Assembly: GCF_009914755.1 (NCBI RefSeq)
Contig: NC_060937.1
DNA: 64,000 nucleotides
Reading direction: 5' to 3' (one strand)
Origin: the human T2T-CHM13v2.0 reference genome, Homo sapiens
Positions 1 through 60,681 of the stretch are shown here, one piece after another. Made by a program: the position numbers and the translations under genes. Within the stretch, counting starts at the first letter, position 1, and each line of letters starts with the position of its first letter. Below the pieces are notes generated by a model that made no database searches, was not told the DNA's origin, and saw only the letters and a list, made by a program, of their open reading frames with translations.

Positions 1-575
1 TGGCTCTGAAGGTCTCTGTGTGACTATGGAGGTCGCGTCCCATGTGGCTGTGGAGGTCGCTGTGTGGCTATGGAGGTCGCGTCCCGTGTGGCTGTAGAGG
101 TCGCTGTGTGACTATGGAGGTCTCGTCTGTGTGGCTGTGGAGGTCGCTGTGTGACTATGGAGGTCGCGTCCCATGTGGCTGTGGAGGTCGCTGTGTGACT
201 ATGGAGGTCTCGTCCGTGTGGCTGTGGAGGTCGCGTGTGTGACTATGGAGGTCTCGTCCATGTGGCTGTGGCGGTCTCTGTGTGACTATGGAGGTCTCGT
301 CTGTGTGGCTGTGGAGGTCTTTGGGTGACTATGGTGGTCACGTCCCATGGTCCCATGTGGCTGTGGAGGTCGTGTGTGACTATGGAGGTCTCGTCCACGT
401 GGCTGTGGAGGTCTTTGTGTGACTATGGAGGTCACGTCCCATGTGGCTGTGGAGGTCGCTGTGTGACTATGGAGGTCTCATCTGTGTGGCTGTGGAGGTC
501 TTTGTGTGACTATGGAGGTCACGTCCCATGTGGCTGTGGAGGTCTCTGTGTGACTATGGAGGTCATGTCCCACAG
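1..575. repeat. Minisatellite/VNTR, ~43-44 bp unit (two related half-units TGTGACTATGGAGGTC.. / TGTGGCTGTGGAGGTC..), >=13 copies, runs off window start; CUL4A intron 2
   Basis: TG(A/G)CTATGG recurs at 21, 65, 109, 152, 196, 240 and onward. Confidence 0.95.
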
Positions 576-3394: not shown

Positions 3395-3675
3395 ATATCC
3401 TTTTTTTGGTTCATAAAGTTTCTATTCATTATCTAAGTCTTTTAAAACTGAACATTATTATGATAAAGAGCTAATGAGTATCCTTAATATTAAAACAACA
3501 GCTTTTAAAGTTCTCTTTTATTTGATAGGTTTGTAAGCGAAATTTACCATTTAAATTATTTTGCTGATTTGAATTAAAGGGAAACCGTGTTCATTTATTG
3601 GGTATGGTTGAAGTATTTAGGAAATGTTCTGAAAAATGTCTTCAAGTTTGAGTATCCTTTATTCTAATAAACACC

Positions 3676-4183
3676 ATCTGCATTGGCTTTCTGTGATAGG
3701 CAACAAAGTCCCATCGACTTGGCGACTTATGGAGACACCCACTTATCAGCGCACAGTTGTGTCTGTCAGGAGGCCAGGCAGGATTCAGTGGATTCTATGC
3801 TCAGTCTCACGGGCAGAGTCAAGGTGTCAGCCAGGTTGGGGCCTCACCTGAGGTCTTTGCTAGCACGGGCAGGCAGTTGGCGGAAGCCAGTTCCTGTGGT
3901 AGTGGGACTGAGGGCCCTGCCTTCTGTCCCGTGTTGCTTGGTGTCACTCTCAGCTCCACATGCACAGGTCCTTGCCTCTCCTCTCACAGCACGACTCTTT
4001 TCTGCTTCTAGACCAGCAGGAGAATCTGCCTGTCTGACCTGCTGAGATAGGGCCTTATATGATGTAACCCGTAACCCAGTCAAGGAATGATGACCTTCGT
4101 ATTCACAGCCTCGTTCACAGTTGCGTGTGAGGCATCCTCCACGTGGGGACAGGGCAGGAGCATCTCAGAATTCTGCTGCCACA
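3676..4183 (-). mobile_element. MaLR LTR (MLT1-like), degenerate
   Basis: MLT1-like phrases (CACAGTTGTGTCTGTCAGGAGGCCAGGCA..GCTCAGTCTCAC..AGTCAAGGTGTCAGCCAGG; ends CATCTCAGAATTCTGCTGCCACA); by eye. Confidence 0.6.
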
Positions 4184-5900
4184 CCAGCTGTGACTCAGAC
4201 GTCTACAGGGGAGTCTCTGGGCTCCTTGGCATCCTATAGAAAATCCTTTAATCTGGACTCAATCTCATTCCCCAGCCTCCTCCCAGTACTGTAGCTGTCC
4301 ATGTGTCTCATTGGGTAGGAATTAGAAAGTAGAGTTTATAATTGCAGAAAATCTACTTGTGGCTGTACTTTTCTAGGCCTCCGTTTCTTCATGTGTAAAA
4401 TTAGGTGGTTTGTGTTTGCTTATTTCTAAGTGTTCTTCTAGTTCAAGGAAACTTCTGCTCCCCCATCTCCCTGATCTTGGGAAACTAAACCATTCTGAGT
4501 TCATTGGAAGGGTCCTCAGGGAATCTGCAGCAGTTGGTGCTGCTGAAGTTGAAGCACGTGACAGGGAAGCTGAAATGCAGGGTGAGAGGTCTCTGTTTAG
4601 ACAATCTCCACAGCACCCCGCACAGATGTGAGTGAAGTCGGTTCCAGCTCTGTTGTGCTGGCTTCTGTAAATACGCCTCTGCAGTGTTTTCCAGCAAAGC
4701 CCTTTCCTAAAGATCATGAGGTCGTTCAAGAGATCAGTGACCGCACACCACCTTTTGGAACCTGGCCAAAGTGCACCTTATCTCAGGAGGCGCCTGTGAG
4801 GGCGCACAGAAGCAGGCCCCGCCCCAGTGCCACGGCTCAGCAATGCGCTTCCAGGAACCTACGTTCCAGATGTTTCCATCCAAAAAGCGGCCTGACTCCT
4901 AGGCTTGGGGGAAGTCTTTAGCAGATGCCCAAGCCTTCTCCCAAAGACTTAGGCGTTTATGAGAGTCAGTAGGCGGTGATTGTTCCTACTCTAGTTGCTG
5001 TCCCAATTTACTTGAAAACGACTATCTGATTACCTGATCAAATGAATCTTTTGCCAGTTACTCCTACTCTGTGGGTTGACTAATGTGCCATCAGTTCACT
5101 CACTGCACAAGCACTTGCTTTCTACCTACTGCACTGGCACCGCAAAATGGAAAGTGACCCCCATGCCTGATTTCTACCCTCCAAGAAGTCGCAGGCTTAT
5201 GGGAGAGGCAGGGGAATTACTGTATTTCCCTGGTGCAGTGGCAAAACTGTGATTACAAAAATTATCATTTGGTTCATTAAAGGCAAAAGAAAAAAACACT
5301 ACCGTATTAAATGCCCTTATTAGTCATGAGACAAGATCTTGAGTTGAGAACTGCGCGTCAGGCCAGGAATGGTGGCATGTGAAGCATCTGGGGCAGAGCC
5401 TCCCAGAGGAGACCCTCCTGAAGGGATGGGGAGGATGCGCCCTCCTGTGGCTGTGGCACCAGAAGCAGAGCGTGGAGGGTGCTCTGGAAACCCCGAGCAG
5501 CGGGCACAACTAGAACTCCAGAGACCTGGTGGCCCTTAGGCTGTGATGCTAAGTTGCAGACTGAATTTGAATCTTTGTGGATACTACCAAGGAGTCAGAC
5601 TTCAGTCTGTGAGTATCCCAGAGTCCTCACAGGTTTTTTAAGCAAGAAACCAGAATTAGATTGTTCATGGAGGTCACTCTGGCAGAATGATGGGATAAGT
5701 TTACATATAGACCAGCACACCACAGCCTTCCATTGGGTCGGCACATGTTTTTAAGTATCTGTCATGTGCTAGGTATGATGCCAGGCCCTGGGAAAATAAA
5801 TCTGAGCAGAATGGGATTCTGTCCCTTTGGAGCTTAAACCCGAATGGCGGTGGCAAAAGCATCAGGATAAGCATTTATGCAGTGCTGTGATAAGGGTTTT

Positions 5901-6221
5901 TTTTGTTTTGTTTTTTTGTGTTATTTATTTATTTATTTTTGTGAGATGGAGTCTTGCTCTGTCACCCAGGCTAGAGTGCAGTGGCACGATCTCGGCTCAC
6001 TGCACCTCTCCCTCCTGGGTTCAAGCCATTCTCCTGCCTCGGCCTTTCCAGTAGCTGGGATTACAGGCGCCCACCACCATGCTCGGCTAATTTTTGTATT
6101 TTTAGTAGAGACGGGGTTTCACCACATTGGCCAGGCTGGTCTCGAACTCCTGACCTCGTGATCCACCTGCCTCAGCCTCCCAAAGTGCTGGGATTACAGG
6201 CGTGAGCCACCGCGTCTGGCC
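5901..6221 (-). mobile_element. Alu (AluS-like) with 15-bp TSD
   Basis: Reverse Alu; TSD TGTGATAAGGGTTTT at 5886-5900 and 6222-6236. Confidence 0.95.
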
Positions 6222-6778
6222 TGTGATAAGGGTTTTCAAAGGTTCAGATAAGCTCCTGGGACCTAAAGAAAGAGCAGCTAGCCCACCTGTGTAGGGGAGC
6301 ATTGCAGGGGCGAAGCGATGTCTGGGCCATGTCCTAAAGGATGGATGAGGAAGTGGCAGGCGCTGTGGGATGCCAAGGTGGCACAGGCCAGGGAGCAGCG
6401 TGGGCAGCCCTGGCGCTGAGGAAGCTTACTGGGCAGAAGAGCCAGGTATGCTGCTGGGTGTGGGAGAGTTGACCACTGACAGGATCCCTAAAGGGGAAAA
6501 TGAGAGGAAGGTGGATGCTGAATTGTGGAGGAGCCTTTGTTGAACCAAGAGGTTGAGGTTTATCTGAAGGTGGAGATTGAGCCAAGGTGTTCAGGCACAG
6601 CATGGCTGGGTTATGTTGGTAAGAAGTTAGTGTGCCTGTGTGTGTGCACTGTGGTGTGAGGGGTCACACCACAATGGTTTGACTGGGCAGCAAAACCACA
6701 GGGTGGAATGGCAGCATCCTGCCAGCAAACCTCTTATGGTTAGAGGGAAAGGATCTGACTGCTGTGGAAGGATGAACC

Positions 6779-6888
6779 AGACACGGATTGAGGCGGGGAG
6801 GGTCTGTCGTGGTCACGTTGATTTGGAAGGAGGAGACACGGATTGAGGCGGGGAGGGTCTGTCGTGGTCATGTTGATTTGGAAGGAGG
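6779..6888. repeat. 55-bp tandem duplication (2 copies)
   Basis: AGACACGGATTGAGGCGGGGAGGGTCTGTCGTGGTCA(C/T)GTTGATTTGGAAGGAGG twice. Confidence 0.9.
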
Positions 6889-6992
6889 TGAGGAGGCACT
6901 CAGGTAGAGATGCCTGTTGTGCATTTGGGGCTGGAGACACAGATCCAGTGGCTCCAGACATGGATGAGATGCCCAGGAAAAATGAGCAGAGT

Positions 6993-7295
<303 letters not shown>

Positions 7296-7735
7296 TCAGG
7301 AAGATGAGAGGAGAACCTGGAGAGTCATCTTGTGGGAATCGAGGGGCGAGTTTAATATGGCAGGCGGCTTAGTGACCAGTAAGTAGAGTCTGAGGGGATG
7401 ATGAGACCAGGAAGTGGCTGGTTACTGTGATGAAGGCTTTTAGGCTACATTCGTACGTTAACCTAGTAAACATGGGGTGTTTCTGTCCAACTCAGCACTG
7501 TGCGTTGGGGACCAGGGACAGGCATGAATGGCACGGGTCCTGCTCTCAAAAAGCTTGTTTTTGCTGGAAGAGAGTTCTGACCCAGCCCAGTCTCACATGG
7601 GGAAATGTTAATGTGATGGCAGATGCTGAGATACTGTGTGGCAGGGAGTATTCCAAGGTCTGCATATTCAGATTTCTTTTGCCTCTGGGATATTCCAGTA
7701 CTTCAAGTAACTCTACTTTCTAAGATTTAAGTAAT

Positions 7736-8042
7736 TTGTTGTTGTTGTTGTTGTTTTGAGACGGAGTTTCGCTCTTAATTGCCCAGGCTAGAGTGCAATG
7801 GCGCAATCTTGGCTCACCGCAACAACCTCCACTCCTGGGTTCAAGCGATTCTCTTGTCTCAGCCTCCCGAGTAGCTGGGATTACAGGAATGCGCCACCAC
7901 GCCTGGCTAATTTTGTATTTTTAGTAGAAACGGGGTTTCTCCACATTGGTCAGGCTGGTCTCGAATTTGCGATCTTGGATTATCTGCCTGCTTCGACCTC
8001 CCAAAGTGTTGGGATTACAGGCGTGAGCCACCATGCCCGGCC
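7736..8042 (-). mobile_element. Alu (AluS-like), (TTG)n tail
   Basis: Reverse Alu; TSD AGATTTAAGTAAT. Confidence 0.95.
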
Positions 8043-8416
8043 AGATTTAAGTAATGTTATGTACCGATTATATTTTGATTGTATGCTGATATTAGATTAT
8101 AGATGAAACCCATCAGATGTGCAGGTAGAAAAAGGGCTTTTGTGGAATTGAGTCATTCACTACCATCTTCTTCGTTTACCACATCCGTTTTCTTGTCTCA
8201 CATGTTTGATAAACTCTGCACTTAGCTGTCCGTTTCAAAATAGATAGCTGCTCTTGGTGACGTCCCTTCCTCAAAATAAAGGCCATTTGTACCCTTGCAC
8301 TCATACACATGCTCAGCCACAGGCAGCTGCTGCAGAACCCACACCACATGCTGCAGGACCACGTGCCACCCAGCCAAGCTACGTGGGCAACAGGAGCTCT
8401 TCAAAAATGTCAAGCC

Positions 8417-8763
<347 letters not shown>

Positions 8764-11088
8764 TCACATTTTCCTTCCCCTGGTTCACCTTGACAGCATT
8801 GCAGCTCTGGTCAGCCACAGAATGCCAGGCAGTGGTGGACACCATGATAGCCGTGTGGTCAGAAGGGAAGGGCACGGGAGTGAGCTGGGAACCTTGGCTG
8901 TTGGGGAAGTTGCAAAGCTCCAGTTTCCTCTAAGTGTGCCTTTATGATCCGCACTGGCGACAGCAGGCTTTGTCTTTCCTTAGAAAGACTTTGTGCCTGT
9001 TCTCACTTGACCAGATATCGTGTACGGAGCACTTGCTGGCAGTAGGCCAAGCTCTGCACATTCATGAATTGCTTTGTCTCACAACACCCTGAGCCGTAGG
9101 TATCTTTATTGACCATATTTTCCAGATGAAGAGACGAAAGCCCAAGAGAACCCTGTTAATGCTCGGCCAGATCAGAGGAGACAAAACAAGCACCCCTGCC
9201 TTCATGGGTTGTGTGGATGAATGAGGGTCGGCCTAGGGCTGTCCCCTCGCGGTCTGTCCGGTCTGTCGGTACAGGCAGCAGATGGGCCACTTGTTCCTGG
9301 AATTGCAGAAGCAGATAACCAAGTGTAGAAAATGTATGTATCCCTCTTCTACCCCAACAGAAGCACCGTCTTTTTGCTTTTTCTTTTTTTTTTTAGTTAC
9401 AGATATGATAGGTAGGTTTTTTTCTATGGTGTAAGCATTTCTGCTGTTGGATTTTGTTTGCTGTTTGAAGACCTGCCTAACTCGTCTCAGTAGGCTGTAT
9501 AAATCGTTTAATGAAGATTGGCCCTTTTCTGAAGTGAGAAAAAGGATGGTTGCTGAAGAACCTATCTCGAGAATACACTATTGACAGACTCACGGTGTCT
9601 GTGTGTCTCACATCCTGGAATTACTTGCACACCATTGTGGCTATGTGTTATATCCCAGAATATGGAATTGATTTTGATGTTTAGAAGGCCAAAGCTTACT
9701 TAGTAAATGCCACACTGATTTTAGCTTACCATTTTGTAGTTTTTTTCTGTGGGAAATAACAAAAAAATTATTGATTGAGGATCTATATTGATTTTACAGA
9801 GCTATTTTAGAGGAAGTATTTCTCATTTAATGAACACTTTACATTGGACTTTCCATCTTAACAAGACACTGCCCCAGGTGGAACTCTGTCTTCACAACAC
9901 CTGAGCTGCCCAGTGGTGTCAGATTGACTGGTGTCAGTTTAACCCCGTTAAGTTTAAAGGATCTGTGCACCCTCATCTGGAAGCAAAGCTCCGCCTTCGG
10001 CTGCTGTGGCCCGCCTGCCCGCAGAGAGGCTTGCTGGGAGGTCCAGGCCGCAGTTCCCGTCCAGCTCCTGGAGTCAGAGCTGCAGGATGGCTGTTGGGGG
10101 TCCTTGAAGCCTGTCCAGATGCACTTGGGATGGGTTTTTTTGTTTTGTCCAGACTGTTTCTGTAGATTCCTAATATAATGAGCCATTATAATTTTGAACA
10201 ATTTGTAAAGAGTACTTCCAGAGGAACCTGTTAACCATTCAACCATTAGGTCTTTGCTGTAAGTGTCTGTTTTTAATTTTCTGGCAGTGCTTCTGAGAAT
10301 TCTGCAAAGCCTCAAGAAAAAATAGAGTAAGCTGTCTTAGCCAGGCCCCTGTAGCTTTGGTCACAGCACTTCCTGGTGTGACAAGGACTCAGACCCCCCG
10401 GGAGCCCCTTGGCTATCCTCAGCACTGTTTATTCCTCCTCAGGCTCTGCCTGGCACCCTACCCTCCCTGGCACTCTTTCTTTGTCAGGCCACTCGTTGCC
10501 ACCCTGAGACTCCAGCTCATGTCTGATTTGTGCATCCTACTTAACTGATGTGTTTTTCCTCCTCTCTGTGTGTGAGGATGTTGTCACCACCTCACATTGG
10601 CTCTTGAGTGTGAAGTGTCTTGCTGCACGGCAGAAACAGACCTAGAGAAGTCCCTTGGTTTGGCCAGTATTGTGTTGCTGACAGGCGGTGGATCAAGAGT
10701 TAAAATGTAGGAAGTCCATGTTCTGTCCCCTTTGACAAGCCATTTTCTTAATCTGTACAAAGGGAACAATGTCTGCACCACGAGGTTGGGGAGATTTTCA
10801 GTGAGAGTGGATGTGAAGAGTGTTTCGTAAACCATAAAGCAGTTTATTGTCATTGATGATTCTCAGCTTTGCATGAACCTGAGGGACACCAGACCACTTG
10901 CTCTAGGAGCCCATATTCTGGGTTCTTTGTCCTAAACTACTTTTTGGGCCTTTTCCTAAAAATACACATTCTAAGAGTCAAGGTAAGAGTGTTCCTAATT
11001 TGGTGCATGGATGAGAGTTCATGTTAGTTTTCATTGAGGCTGGAAGTTAAACCTGAGCCATTTTCCTGTCCAGCTGCACTTTGCCACA

Positions 11089-11215
11089 GGCTGGGCACAC
11101 TGGCTCATACCTGTAATCCTAGCACTTTGGGAGACTGAGGAGGATTACTTAAGACCACGTGTTCAAGACCAGCCTAGGAGTATAGTGAGGTGCCATCTCT
11201 TTTAATTTTTAAAAA
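11089..11215 (+). mobile_element. Alu monomer (FLAM-like)
   Basis: Left-arm only: GGCTGGGCACACTGGCTCATACCTGTAATCC... Confidence 0.75.
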
Positions 11216-11529
11216 ATAGTCCTAGTGACTCTTACCAGGCCAGTCACCATCTCCAGGAGCCCCCCTGTGGGAGTATGTTCAGTGTCTGCCCTTTGTGAAG
11301 TGGGGCCTTTTGTCCCGCCACCTACCCCCAGGGCACTTAAGGCCTGGGTGTGTTTCTGCCGGCAGGGACTTGAAGGTGTCTGGCAGTGAAGGAAGGAGAG
11401 GATGAAGGGAGGCTGGAGAGGGAGTGGCGAGCGGCCAGAGGCAGGCGGGGCCGTGGGAAGGGAAAGCAGCACAGGCAAGCTGAGTGCACATTGGTGATGA
11501 GATACAGAGATCCATGATTGAACTTCTAG

Positions 11530-11884
11530 TGTATCTTAGCCCACTGGGGCTGCCATGACAAAACACCATAGAGTGTGGCTCATCAACAGCAGGAGTCTGT
11601 TGCTCACAGCTCTGGAGGCTGGAGGTCCAGGGTCAAGGCACTGGCAGATTGCATGTCTGGTGGGGCCCCGCTTCCTGGTCCATAGCCAGCACCTTCTCAC
11701 TGCATCCTTATGTGGTGGAAGAGGCAGGGGAGCTCTCTGGGGTCTCTTTTGTAACCCCATTCTTGAGGCTTGTCCACTCTCATGACCTAATCACCTCCCA
11801 GAGGCCCTGCCTCCTAACACCATTACCGTAGAGTGAGAGCTTCAGCCTATGAATTTTGGGGGGACATGAACATTCAAGACTAAT
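11530..11884 (-). mobile_element. MaLR LTR (MLT1A/B-like)
   Basis: GGCTGCCATGACAAAACACCATAGA..CTCACAGCTCTGGAGGCTGG..ATGACCTAATCACCTCCCA..GGGGGACATGAACATTCA. Confidence 0.8.
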
Positions 11885-11969
11885 ATTCTTTCAGTATTCC
11901 AGTTACTGAATGGTGTGTAGTATTCAGTGGAGAAGGTAGCTGAAATTAAGGGGTTAAAATTGTAATAAT

Positions 11970-12277
<308 letters not shown>

Positions 12278-12322
12278 TTAAATTGGCCAGCATTTTTAAA
12301 GTTTTCCTTAGCAGATCTGTAC

Positions 12323-13768: not shown

Positions 13769-13867
<99 letters not shown>

Positions 13868-15054
13868 TGAGTGTCCTCACAGCGCAGAGCTGCGTCTTCC
13901 CTGCAGCTGATGCTTTTCGTCCCGTTTGTGTCTTCCGCAGGCTAAGATGGTAAAGTGTGTGTGATTACTTGTGCCTTCCTTTCTTCAGCCAAAATCATTA
14001 ACGTGAACGTAGGAGTCCAGGTGGGTCTTAGCCTTGAAACACCAGGTGTCTAGCCAGCAGCAAGGAGTGGAGCAGGAAGCTCGGACAGGCGGCTGACTTT
14101 GGTCATGAGGGTGAAGACAGAGGGTCTTGGTTTCTCTCTGACGACTGGAGGTTGAGCCTGGAGCGGCTCTTTCCAGCGCTGCAGTTGAAACTCGGAGAAA
14201 GACTGCCTGCTGCCCGTGGGGTCGCAGCCCTGAGGCTGTGCGTCCCCTGTGGAATGGCTTGCTCAGCCTCCCGGCCTCCTGAGCACATAGCACTCATCGT
14301 CCGTCATCTTTCGGGGACTGTATACACCAGGGGTTCTGGGGCCTTTCCTCAGCAGCGTTCGCGGCCACGGACCCCACATGTCCTCTGCTGACCCCTGTGT
14401 GTCCTCTGTGGCCACCCCATGGCGCTGAATCCTGCCGCCTCCTGCAAGCCGACTTTGGACAAAAGCTGTGTCCGGTCTCACCGTCTGATTTGTCTTGTTC
14501 TCTGTTAATGTAGTGTTTCATTCTTCTCACATTCATACATAAAAGTGATGTCGTGCCTTCTCATGAGCTTTAAACCCAAGTTCTTTAAAATGTGCCTGCT
14601 TTTCCTACCCCACCCACTGGGCACGCTGACCCAAGGCAATGTGATTTCTGCTTTCGCCATGTAGAGATTGCTCTTGTCTGAGATGTCGGTGACCTGCCAG
14701 TTACCAAATCCAGCAAGCATTTTTGTCCTTATTTTATACAACATCTATACAATTTTGGACACCCTGTCCTTGTTGAAGCTCCCATTAATGCCATTTGCCC
14801 TTCTAACTTCCTCATGGAACTCCCAAACATCTCCTAGTAGGCATCCATGTGGTCTACGAGAAGGCAAACGCTGCACAGAAAAGACAGCCTGTGTTCCAGG
14901 AAAGAATGGAGATGATAAAAGTGATCATAGCAGATTATTTAGCATTTGCTCTGTGCAAGGGACTGTTTCCTACTAATGTATTTAATCCCTAGAGCAGCTC
15001 TGTGGCGTGGCCATTGTCACTCCTATTTTATACAAACTAAGGCACATAAGTTAA

Positions 15055-15420
<366 letters not shown>

Positions 15421-16274
15421 TAAACTCTTAATTTATAAACATAGTTTATACCATAACTGTCATACAAACTATAAACATTGTTTATAAAATAGAATAAATG
15501 ATACCACCTCCAGTCTACCACAAGTGGCTAAAAACCTGAACGTGAGCATCATTACAAGAAGAATCCTGGTTGAGGTGTGTGTGGGCAATGCATGGTGAGG
15601 AGATACTTTGTCCATCTCTGGGATGGGGAGGAGGGCTGAGGGTGAACCTTGGCCTGTGCTTTGAAGAATGAGCAAAGGTGGTCAGGCAGCTAAGAAAGAA
15701 AGAGTAGAAGGAAGCAGTAAGTTCAAAGCCGAGTATCTCCTGCTAGTGATGGCTAGGACGGCAGCATGACCAGAAGAAGCCTGTGTGGGGAGTGGGAGGT
15801 GGGGAGGGATAGAGCTGATGAGGGCCCTGAAGGGTTTTTCAGCTGAGGTTGATGTTTTAAAGAGAAGATCCCAGTGGCAGGGTAGAGAGTCACACAAGTG
15901 GAGACCTAAGCCTTCCTAAGCACTGGCTACCTGCCTGGCACTGCCCCAAGGGCTTCAGAGGCAGGAACTAATAACATTTGATCCCCATTTTAACAGTTCA
16001 GGAAGGAAAGGCACAGAGACATTAAGCTTCTCACCCAGGGTCACACAGCTAGCAAGTAGTAGGGCCAGGATTCAAACCCAGGCAGCTGCCTCGAGCCCAC
16101 AAGTCTGGCCACTGCACCTTCCTGCTCCAACTGTGGTGAAGTGCACAGAAGACCTGGTGTGCAGCACACGCGGGAGCAACAGGAGAGGCCCATGGTGATG
16201 TGGGCAGTCAAGGGAGGTGCACGTCTCCACCATTGAGGTGGCTCCCAGGGCCCTCTGCACACCTGTGTGGCACC

Positions 16275-16890
16275 CACCACTGCGGCTGCTGCCACCACTG
16301 CCACCATAATATTATTAATAATACTACCACCACCACCCGCCTACCACTGTTACTACTGCCACCACCACCACTACCATTACTGCTGCCACCACTACCCGCC
16401 CACCACCATTACTGTCACCACCACCCGCCCACCACCATTACTGTCACCACTACCCGCCCACCACCATTACTGTCACCACTACCTGCCCACCACCATTACT
16501 GTCACCACTACCCGCCCACCACCATTACTGCTGCCACCACTACCCGCCCACCACCATTACTGTCACCACTACCTGCCCACCACCATTACTGCTGCCACCA
16601 CTACCCGCCCACCACTATTACTGCTGCTGCCACCACCAGTATTACTGTCACCGCCACCACCGCTATTACTACTGCCACCACCACCTGTCCACCACCATTA
16701 CTGTCACCACTACCTGCCCACCACCATTACTGCTGCCACCACTACCCGCCCACCACTATTACTGCTGCTGCCACCACCAGTATTACTGTCACCGCCACCA
16801 CCGCTATTACTACTGCCACCACCACCTGTCCACCACTATATTACTGCTGCCACCACCACCACTATTACTATTACTGCCACCACCAGCACC
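16275..16890. repeat. C/A-rich VNTR: 29/32-bp units (CACCACCATTACTG[T|CTGC]CACCACTACCCGCC) plus a 141-bp higher-order duplication; CUL4A intron 5
   Basis: Units read directly ~16370-16610; 141-bp period shown by TGTCC at 16686 and 16827. Confidence 0.95.
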
Positions 16891-17626
16891 ACTCCTGCCC
16901 TGATGTGCCAATTCCGGATTTCTGGCTGGAGCCCAGCATCTGTATTTTTGGCCCCTCCTTAATGGCGTACTTGGCCACTGGGGACAGTAGGAGTGTTGAA
17001 GCAAAGCACAGAGCCCACAAGATGGGTTTTGTGGACAGCCACTGGCAGCTGAACCATCTTCCTAACATTCCTCAGGCCATGAGCTGAGGACTGCGATGAA
17101 CTCTGAAAGCTGTGCATCACCTTCTCTTCTCAGGGGAAAGCAGCAAACATTTGGTAGGAGAGCTCCCGGGGCTTGGAGAAGGGAAGCTGCTGGGACGTGC
17201 TCAGCAGAGGACACTGGGAAGAGAGTGTACCCTGAGGGCTGTTGGAGACGGTGGCGGGAGGGGCAGGTGGGGCAGGCAGGGTCGTGGTGCCCAACTGCCT
17301 GAGTGTCTGCCGTCGCTCAGCAGGAAGGTGGCGAGGACCCCGGGCTTCTGCCAGCAGCTTGTGTGATACCAGTTTTACTGTCAGTGGCATGCATGACCTA
17401 GCAGCGTCTCCAGGAACGTGGAGCAGCTCTGTTTAAGGAAGGAAATACAAGGCGCGCTAGACTGGCTGAGAAACAGAAGTTTTTAAAAGGAATTCTTGGC
17501 ACCTAGATGTAGAGAATTAGCAACTTCACATTTTTGGGATGATATTGAATAGCATAGCTGGAGATTCACCCATAACTTCTAAAAAGCGAAACTAAAATGT
17601 AGTCCTGTTTCTTACTGTCTATACAG

Positions 17627-17789
17627 GGATATGGGATTAGAACTGTTTAGAACCCATATTATTAGTGATAAAATGGTTCAGAGTAAAACCATTGATGGAA
17701 TCCTACTGCTGATCGAGCGCGAGAGGAGCGGCGAGGCCGTGGACCGGAGCCTGTTGCGGAGCCTCCTGGGCATGCTGTCTGACCTGCAG
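17627..17789 (+). CDS. CUL4A: Cullin-4A exon 6 (DMGLELFR...LLGMLSDLQ)
   Basis: tacag acceptor, GTGAGT donor; 163 nt; overlaps ORF 17631. Confidence 0.98.
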
Positions 17790-17976: not shown

Positions 17977-18038
17977 GATAGATCAATATCACTACATAAA
18001 ATGCACGGATAGATCAATATCACTACATAAAATGCACG
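17977..18038. repeat. 31-bp perfect tandem duplication
   Basis: GATAGATCAATATCACTACATAAAATGCACG x2. Confidence 0.9.
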
Positions 18039-33649: not shown

Positions 33650-33890
33650 GTCCATCCGTGCTGCACCATACATGAGCGCTTTATTCCATCCATGCTGTAC
33701 CATACATGAGCGCTTTATTCCATCCATGCTGTACCATACATGAGCGCTTTATTCCATCCATGCTGTGCCATACATCAGCGCTTTATTCCATCCATGCTGT
33801 GCCATACATCAGCGCTTTATTCCATCCATGCTGTACCATACATGAGCGCTTTATTCCATCCGTGCTGCACCATACATCAGTGCTTTATTC
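33650..33890. repeat. 34-bp minisatellite, ~7 copies, arisen within L1
   Basis: TTATTCCATCCATGCTGTACCATACATGAGCGCT at 33681, 33715, ... Confidence 0.95.
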
Positions 33891-34627
33891 CTTTTCTGGC
33901 TGAATAACATCACATTGTATCGATAGGTCACATCTGGTTTCTCCATTCACCAAACATTGGGCATTTGGGTTATTTCCACCTTTTGGCCGCTGTGAATAAT
34001 GCTGCTATGAACATGGGTGTACAAGTTTTAGTTTGAACACCTGCGGTCACTTATTTTGGGGTATATACCTGGGAGTGGAACTGCTGGGTCATGCAGTAAC
34101 TTGAAGTTTAAGTTACTGAGGAATTGCCGGACTGTTTCCCACAGTGGCTGCAGCAGCTTTTATTCCAGTTAGCAATCACGAGAGCTTCCCACCTTCTCAC
34201 CTACACCTGTGATCTGCCTCTTTCGTTGTAGCCATCCCTGTCCATATGAGCTGGTCTCTCATCTTGCCGTGATTTGCATTTCCCTGATGACTGTTGATGT
34301 TGAGCATCTTTTCATGTCCTGATTGACCATTTGCGTATCTTCTTTGGAGAAATGTCTGTTCACGTGCTTTGCCTAGTTTTTAACCGGGCTGTTTATCTTT
34401 TGTTATTAAGCTATAAGAGCTCTTTATATTCCAAATGCTAGACCCTTATCAGATCTGTGATTTGCAAGTATTTTCTCCCATTCTGTGGGCTATCTTTTTA
34501 CTTTCTTGATAGTGTGCTTCTACAAAAGTTTTTAATTATGGTAAAATCACATTTATTTTCTCTTTTGTAACTTTTGGTGTCATGTCTGAGAAACCATTGC
34601 CAAATCAAGATCACAAAAAATTGACGA

Positions 34628-46139: not shown

Positions 46140-46560
<421 letters not shown>

Positions 46561-46755: not shown

Positions 46756-48855
<2,100 letters not shown>

Positions 48856-60514: not shown

Positions 60515-60681
60515 ATGGTCTGGTGAGTGTGATGAGCTAGAGATGCGTGTGACAGCCCTGGGGGAAAGGGGAGATGGTCTAGTGAGTGTGATGAGCCAGA
60601 GATGTGTGTGACAGCCCTGGGGGAAAGGGGAGATGGTCTAGTGAGTGTGATGAGCCAGAGATGTGTGTGGTAACCCTGGGG
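60515..60681. repeat. 59-bp tandem repeat, ~2.8 copies
   Basis: ATGGTCT at 60515, 60574, 60633. Confidence 0.9.

What the first reader, a model, noticed from the sequence alone, without database searches (positions are those of the whole stretch)
16275..16890. 29/32-bp VNTR in intron 5 as a likely length-dependent splicing rheostat
Seen: interspersed 29-bp and 32-bp units with extreme strand asymmetry (C/A-rich sense, GGT-rich antisense) and a 141-bp higher-order duplication. The array lies between the cryptic acceptor (13941) and the true exon 6 acceptor (17627). From memory, to be verified: a biobank VNTR study (Mukamel et al. 2023) linked an intronic ~29-32-bp CUL4A repeat to red-cell traits and to a truncating splice choice, which matches this array. 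Inference: expansion delays or blocks exon 6 recognition and favours the proximal acceptor. This allele looks short (~7-8 core units).
Basis: partly seen in the sequence, partly recalled or inferred. Interest (0 to 1): 0.7.

Follow-up and report, generated by a model that had tools for sequence, protein, structure and literature searches.

The report
Known CUL4A intron repeat lowering expression
This is an already published variable-length repeat in intron 5 of the human CUL4A gene: longer versions go with less CUL4A RNA, likely because the extra length lets an early end site in the same intron cut the message short.

Summary
The array is real: C-rich 29-, 32- and 24-bp units at about 16322-16899, with a 141-bp block duplicated at 140/141 identity. 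It is the catalogued VNTR chr13:113231973-113232447 (GRCh38): three of three published motifs match the window only here, and the coordinate maps to about 16325. Published tables show length associated with lower CUL4A expression in five GTEx tissues, fine-mapped at PIP 0.98 in fibroblasts; two papers report splicing and red-cell associations second-hand. Mukamel 2023 itself was not available. Best mechanism, inferred: added length delays exon 6 and lets proximal splicing plus polyadenylation win. The CHM13 allele is below the mean of 19 genomes (926 +/- 475 bp; 43). Already known. The open lead is whether inherited repeat length sets the truncated isoform proposed to affect lenalidomide response.

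The parts
16322..16899 (+). VNTR in CUL4A intron 5 (union of TRF rows; degenerate triplet flank from about 16275)
   Evidence: published locus chr13:113231973-113232447 maps to about 16325 onward
16377..16617 (+). Core run of 8 units of 29 or 32 bp: CCA/CTG/CTA/TTA triplets with one 5-base insert per unit
   Evidence: the three published motifs match at 16395-16565 only
16557..16838 (+). Two copies of a 141-bp higher-order block (29+32+24+24+32), 140/141 identical
13793..13866 (+). CUL4A exon 5 (residues 147-170 plus two bases) and its donor
   Evidence: hub annotation; (147-170 of 2HYE chain C)
13941..13953 (+).
   Evidence: score 10.3 bits on a small in-window matrix; branch-point-like CTGAT at -31; no transcript evidence seen
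13989..14566 (+). Annotated alternative exon, read here as an alternative last exon; adds C-Q-N-H then stop (174 residues)
   Evidence: hub annotation; 1-174 aa isoform in PMC5928244
14538..14566 (+). Variant poly(A) signal CATAAA and inferred cleavage site of the intronic poly(A) isoform
   Evidence: 3'-seq peak hg19 113884483-113884528 retaining 512 coding nt; not followed by an A-rich tract
17603..17626 (+). Alternative exon 6 acceptor adding 8 in-frame codons
   Evidence: hub annotation
17627..17789 (+). CUL4A exon 6 with canonical acceptor, 737 bases after 16890
   Evidence: hub annotation

Best explanation
This is the published length-variable repeat in CUL4A intron 5, and longer alleles likely lower full-length CUL4A by delaying exon 6 so that an upstream terminal exon and poly(A) site in the same intron are used more often. 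Steps: (1) shown: the repeat lies 1.7 kb after the poly(A) site at about 14566 and 0.74 kb before exon 6; (2) shown in published tables: that site is used (10-68% by cell type) and gives a 174-residue product; (3) shown in published tables: repeat length goes with lower CUL4A expression; (4) inferred: the transcripts lost are those diverted to 13989-14566; (5) inferred: the cause is mainly distance and time, each unit adding about 30 bases that carry no splice site, which widens the window in which cleavage can beat splicing to exon 6; (6) inferred: the red-cell effect follows from less full-length CRL4A, perhaps with the truncated protein competing for DDB1. Identity of the locus about 0.97; the stated confidence is for the length/timing mechanism.
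For: Identity: 3 of 3 published motifs match the window only inside the array; GRCh38 113231973 maps to 16325 against a TRF start of 16322. Effect: negative slope in 5 of 5 listed GTEx rows (fibroblasts p 1.2e-16, slope -0.37); fibroblast PIP 0.9785 against best SNP 0.045; the motif test is not better than the length test in 3 of 3 fine-mapped rows; PIP above 0.8 with altered splicing and lower expression in Geuvadis (PMC11701250 passage). Poly(A) site: peak retains 512 coding nt = exons 1-5, and the 11,053-base spacing to a second peak puts ATTAAA 3489 and CATAAA 14538 at the expected places. Proximal acceptors rank in the top 6 of 258 AGs of the intron, level with exon 6; exon 6 has no yTnAy branch motif between -18 and -45. 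The array has 0 GTRAG and only 3 AG, none in the core units. General support: IPA genes have longer introns (PMC5928244 passage); splicing and 3' processing compete, cleavage half-lives under 1 min (PMC13322065 passages); 100 units would add about 65 s over CHM13 at an assumed 2.5 kb/min.
Against: No RNA data could be analysed here; no text I read names the junction that changes or links this VNTR to the 14566 site. Mukamel 2023 was not held. The locus is flagged 'not eQTL' in the earlier danbing-tk table; PIP is only 0.12 in tibial nerve. Cell type alone moves use of the site from 0.10 to 0.68, so trans factors matter at least as much. PMC13322065 argues the competition goes beyond speed and that intronic cleavage is actively repressed. 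The array RNA is unusually unstructured and rich in protein-binding motifs, which fits a sequence-specific mechanism equally. The splice-site matrix was built from only 17 acceptors.
Confidence: 0.55

Rival explanations
1. The repeat RNA binds proteins (C-patch binders such as PCBP or hnRNP K, or SRSF3, MBNL or NOVA-type factors) in proportion to its length, and these silence exon 6 or help define the proximal terminal exon.
For: Sense RNA folds far worse than shuffles (-23.4 against -55.4 +/- 6.0 kcal/mol, z +5.3, 20 of 20 shuffles fold at least as well). YCAY 90 (shuffle 42 +/- 4), YGCY 38 (24 +/- 3), CNNC 201 (136 +/- 6). Motif-to-protein names are recalled.
Against: CACA/ACAC 0 (hnRNP L excluded on motif); CCC 18, below shuffle expectation 51 +/- 4. 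Enrichment against shuffles is automatic in a repeat. Motif dosage did not beat length in 3 of 3 fine-mapped rows. No CLIP data seen.
Confidence: 0.2
2. The repeat slows or pauses RNA polymerase II at the DNA level (G-rich template strand, GC boxes, CpG methylation), acting as a pause element behind the weak poly(A) signal.
For: G4Hunter about 1.0 per core unit on the template strand and 19 two-tier matches; 7 GC boxes in the array against 0 in the other 3144 bases of the intron; 5 of 12 inserts carry TG in place of CG, consistent with past methylation (inference).
Against: 0 canonical G3-N1-7 quadruplexes; only 11% of 25-base windows pass 1.2; 0 MAZ-type sites; a C-rich transcript disfavours R-loops (general knowledge).
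Confidence: 0.17
3. The repeat only tags a nearby causal variant, or the short-read length estimate is confounded, and has no effect itself.
For: Short-read diploid estimates only (stated limitation); about 35 other loci carry 67-77% similar CCA-rich arrays that could attract reads (my count); 'not eQTL' in the 2021 table.
Against: Fine-mapping favours the repeat over SNPs in fibroblasts (0.98 against 0.045) and skin (0.79 against 0.00005) and in Geuvadis; the 5-base insert junction is absent from 3 of 3 foreign arrays checked.
Confidence: 0.08

Closest known systems
CUL4A intronic VNTR chr13:113231973-113232447 (Lu 2021 PMC8275641, Lu 2023 PMC10234305, Zhang 2024 PMC11701250; Mukamel 2023, seen only through PMC12776774 and PMC11701250)
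   Same: Same gene, same motifs, same place; length-associated lower expression, reported splicing and erythrocyte associations.
   Different: Nothing in kind. CHM13 allele is 578-616 bp by my limits, against 474 bp for the GRCh38 interval and 926 +/- 475 bp over 19 genomes; boundaries are not defined identically.
CUL4A-IpA intronic polyadenylation isoform, 1-174 aa (Singh 2018, PMC5928244)
   Same: Poly(A) site in the same intron, 1.7 kb upstream of the array; both proximal acceptors give 174 residues.
   Different: Described as cell-type regulated and lost in myeloma groups; the paper has no occurrence of 'tandem repeat'. Its qPCR forward primer (13917) lies upstream of both acceptors, so it reads unspliced or composite RNA rather than either junction.
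Degenerate (CAC/CCA)n triplet arrays elsewhere in the human genome
   Same: Same triplet backbone and strand skew; 67-77% identity.
   Different: The one run through TRF is period 3; 3 of 3 checked lack the 5-base insert that creates the 29/32-bp period.

Membership tests
Published CUL4A intronic VNTR | Published motif sequences occur in the array | tested here: met
   3 of 3 motifs from PMC10234305 supplements match only at 16395-16565
Published CUL4A intronic VNTR | GRCh38 coordinate maps to the array and not to another CUL4A repeat | tested here: met
   113231973 maps to 16325 via two poly(A) peaks and rs6046; the four other window VNTRs map more than 15 kb away
Published CUL4A intronic VNTR | Unit size 29-32 bp as in Mukamel 2023 | tested here: inconclusive
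   29 and 32 bp seen; the paper's own figure is recalled, paper not held
VNTR (minisatellite) | Tandem units over 6 bp | tested here: met
VNTR (minisatellite) | Length varies between people | not testable with these tools
   Only one haplotype on hand; published row gives 925.7 +/- 475.1 bp in 19 genomes
Splicing or poly(A) QTL repeat | Length correlates with a named junction or poly(A) site | not testable with these tools
   Reported in words only; sashimi figure not visible; no CUL4A row in 10 searched supplement files of the spl-TR catalogue PMC10078293, one file not searched
Intronic polyadenylation, skipped terminal exon type | New acceptor plus poly(A) signal upstream of a mapped 3' end | tested here: met
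   13989 acceptor, CATAAA 14538, peak mapped to about 14566; a composite form is not excluded
hnRNP L CA-repeat element | CA dinucleotide repeats | tested here: not met
   0 CACA/ACAC
Canonical G-quadruplex element | Four G3 tracts with loops of 1-7 | tested here: not met
   0 matches; G4Hunter about 1.0

The most novel reading that the evidence does not exclude
Inherited repeat length is a dial on the CUL4A-IpA isoform: a natural allelic series that tunes the race between splicing and intronic polyadenylation purely by distance, sets the ratio of a 174-residue DDB1-binding fragment to full-length CUL4A, and so shifts CRL4 output in blood cells, including the response of myeloma to lenalidomide-type drugs. 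I found no paper joining the repeat to that isoform or to drug response (8 listed of 10), but Mukamel 2023 was unread and may make the first link.
Probability: 0.15. Interest if true: 0.65.

Novelty: already known. Interest (0 to 1): 0.25.

Why it matters
The locus is known, so the finding itself is a rediscovery. What remains open is how a repeat 1.7 kb behind a weak poly(A) site and 0.7 kb before the next exon changes RNA processing. Because alleles differ by hundreds of bases or more with the splice sites unchanged, it offers a direct test of whether intron length alone drives intronic polyadenylation in people. If the repeat controls the 174-residue isoform, it would connect a common germline variant with an isoform already proposed as a dominant negative of CRL4A and as a factor in lenalidomide resistance (hypothesis in PMC5928244, untested there).

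Tried and rejected
Mukamel 2023 could not be read, so its unit size, copy range, junction and any mechanism are unseen; its supplements may settle which acceptor is used. Zhang 2024 prints two coordinates (113,231,793 in the text, 113231973 in three supplement legends); the second equals the danbing-tk start, so the first is taken as a transposition; both fall in intron 5. Zhang cites reference 9 (Mukamel 2021) for the splicing claim, probably meaning reference 10 (Mukamel 2023). The spl-TR catalogue gave no CUL4A row in 10 files searched, with file 1 unsearched. hnRNP L, canonical G4, MAZ, QKI/SF1 and RBFOX motifs: absent. RNA hairpin looping out exon 6: rejected, the array is less structured than shuffles; the only long-range inverted pair in 15800-17400 is 12 bases. 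Coding role: the sense strand has a stop-free frame over 253 codons, expected for C/A-rich sequence, with no annotated exon; antisense frames have 15-22 stops; not pursued. Nonsense-mediated decay of a cryptic internal exon: not favoured, because the exon ends at a mapped poly(A) site. The 17603 acceptor as the affected event: possible, but in frame and would not by itself lower expression. Whether CHM13 has one more 141-bp block than GRCh38 (616 minus 141 = 475 against 474) could not be decided, as the mapped start is 16325 and not 16275. No fold or complex of the 174-residue protein was predicted, so its stability is open; from recalled cullin structure it would keep helices H2 and H5 but lose the following helix of repeat 1.

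Full report
Observation. The array is present as described. TRF reports a 29-bp period at 16322-16765, a 141-bp period at 16354-16836, and 24-, 32- and 58-bp rows reaching 16899. Splitting at TTACT gives 20 units, in order 27, 32, 29, 29, 29, 29, 32, 29, 32, 24, 24, 32, 29, 32, 24, 24, 34, 24, 6, 30. The units are CCA, CTG, CTA, TTA and TCA triplets with one five-base insert, which is why 29 = 8x3+5 and 32 = 9x3+5 while the 24-bp units are pure triplets. The 141-bp block is duplicated at 140 of 141 bases, so the duplication is likely recent. GC skew is -0.68, the lowest in the window. A search of the whole assembly with the core gave 128 matches from 40 scored of 153 candidates: 4 at this locus, the rest at about 35 loci (my count) at 67-77% identity. 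One of these is a period-3 CAC array and 3 of 3 checked lack the insert. I infer that the repeat grew out of a common degenerate triplet tract.

Identity with the published repeat. Supplement rows of Lu 2023 (PMC10234305; I saw matching rows only) list a VNTR at chr13:113231973-113232447 as lead length-eVNTR for CUL4A, with motifs that match the window only inside this array. An independent coordinate chain agrees: two hg19 3'-seq peaks in CUL4A retain 512 and 368 coding bases, equal to exons 1-5 and 1-3, and their spacing fits poly(A) signals at 14538 and 3489; rs6046 in two papers' tables gives the hg19-to-GRCh38 shift (assumed constant over 110 kb); 113231973 then falls at 16325. Slopes are negative in all 5 listed tissues (fibroblasts, skin, breast, oesophagus mucosa, tibial nerve). 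Fine-mapping gives PIP 0.98 in fibroblasts, 0.79 in skin and 0.12 in nerve. Zhang 2024 (PMC11701250; passages and supplement 1 legends) reports PIP above 0.8, alternative splicing and lower expression in Geuvadis. A review (PMC12776774; passage) attributes to Mukamel 2023 effects on red-cell traits, mean corpuscular haemoglobin above all, and on splicing across tissues. The primary paper was not held, so nothing is taken from it directly. Against: the 2021 table marks the locus as not an eQTL (PMC8275641 supplement row). The same row gives 474 bp in GRCh38 and 925.7 +/- 475.1 bp in 19 genomes; CHM13 at 578-616 bp is 0.65-0.73 sd below the mean, so 'short' is fair though not extreme.

What the competing event is. 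The hub table lists an alternative exon 13989-14566. CATAAA lies at 14538, TGTA at 14509, T-rich sequence follows, and there is no A-tract after 14566. Singh 2018 (PMC5928244; passages and supplement rows) describes CUL4A-IpA as a 1-174 residue protein that keeps the N-terminal DDB1-binding region, proposes a dominant-negative role and a part in lenalidomide resistance as hypotheses, and gives use of the site as 0.10 in naive B cells, 0.26 in blood B, 0.57 in blood T, 0.68 in plasma cells and 0.06, 0.19 and 0.50 in three myeloma groups. Splicing to 13989 adds C-Q-N-H and to 13941 adds W-L-R-W; with exon 5 ending at residue 170 both give 174 residues, while read-through of the donor gives 171. 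On a matrix from 17 window acceptors, 13941 scores 10.3, 13989 9.1 and 17627 10.3 bits, all in the top 6 of 258 AGs; 13941 has a branch-like CTGAT at -31, whereas 13989 and 17627 have no yTnAy at the usual distance. Singh's qPCR primers map to 13917 and 14005-14024 and cannot tell these forms apart.

Mechanism. The array lies 1709 bases after the cleavage site and 737 before exon 6. It adds no donor motif and its core units hold no AG, so expansion does not create splice sites. The simplest reading is timing: at an assumed 2.5 kb/min, 100 units would delay exon 6 by about 65 s relative to CHM13 (the 100-unit figure is an illustration from recall), on the scale of reported cleavage half-lives under a minute (PMC13322065 passage). 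IPA genes have longer introns, weakening a 3' splice site raises IPA in reporters, and motif dosage did not outperform length in 3 of 3 fine-mapped rows. All of this is indirect. The RNA-binding rival has an unstructured transcript with many YCAY, YGCY and CNNC motifs, but no hnRNP L motif and fewer CCC than shuffles. The pausing rival has borderline quadruplex scores and 7 GC boxes; slow elongation favouring proximal sites is cited for Drosophila in PMC7338057 (passage). I put these at 0.55, 0.20 and 0.17, and tagging of another variant at 0.08. The route to red-cell traits is not tested; less full-length CUL4A is the default. [quoted passage not shown]

Novelty. The repeat, its expression effect and the truncated isoform are each in print. 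Searches for CUL4A with VNTR (7 papers), with Mukamel and tandem repeat, with intronic polyadenylation (6 listed of 9) and with lenalidomide, intronic, tandem repeat and polyadenylation (8 listed of 10) showed, in listings and the passages read, no paper tying repeat length to the IpA isoform or to drug response; subscription papers, including Mukamel 2023, are outside this library. Verdict: already known; interest 0.25.

Noticed in passing
window 3395-12322: CUL4A intron 3 has AT-AC ends with a U12-type donor; RefSeq lists acceptors 2 and 4 bases downstream. A review lists CUL4A among genes with nested U12/U2 introns.
   Followed up: partly
window about 3467-3513: A second published intronic poly(A) peak (usage 0.01-0.12) maps just inside that minor intron, with ATTAAA at 3489.
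   Followed up: partly
window 47249-48855: Large 43-bp tandem array (about 37 copies, 98-99% matches) in the last intron, 290 bases before the last exon; MIR8075 is annotated inside it. Likely the main part of a 1.3-kb excess of CHM13 over GRCh38 between 14566 and the gene end.
   Followed up: no
window 1-572, 33651-33891, 46143-46264, 6779-6888, 60515-60681: Further tandem arrays of 44, 34, 41, 55 and 59 bp; the 55-bp pair lies in an annotated enhancer.
   Followed up: no
G000:C2:60472896-60474068 (L007) and about 34 other loci: Degenerate CCA/CAC triplet arrays 67-77% similar to this one; the chromosome 2 array may lie in BCL11A by recalled position, unverified.
   Followed up: no
window 13917-14024: The published qPCR amplicon for CUL4A-IpA starts upstream of both proximal acceptors, so it measures unspliced or composite RNA (171-residue product) and not the 174-residue spliced form.
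   Followed up: partly
window 15419-15498: Cluster of poly(A)-like hexamers, including the only AATAAA of intron 5 (15493), just after an Alu-like stretch and 0.8 kb before the array; no mapped peak seen there.
   Followed up: no
window 17977-18038: Perfect two-copy 31-bp repeat in intron 6.
   Followed up: no
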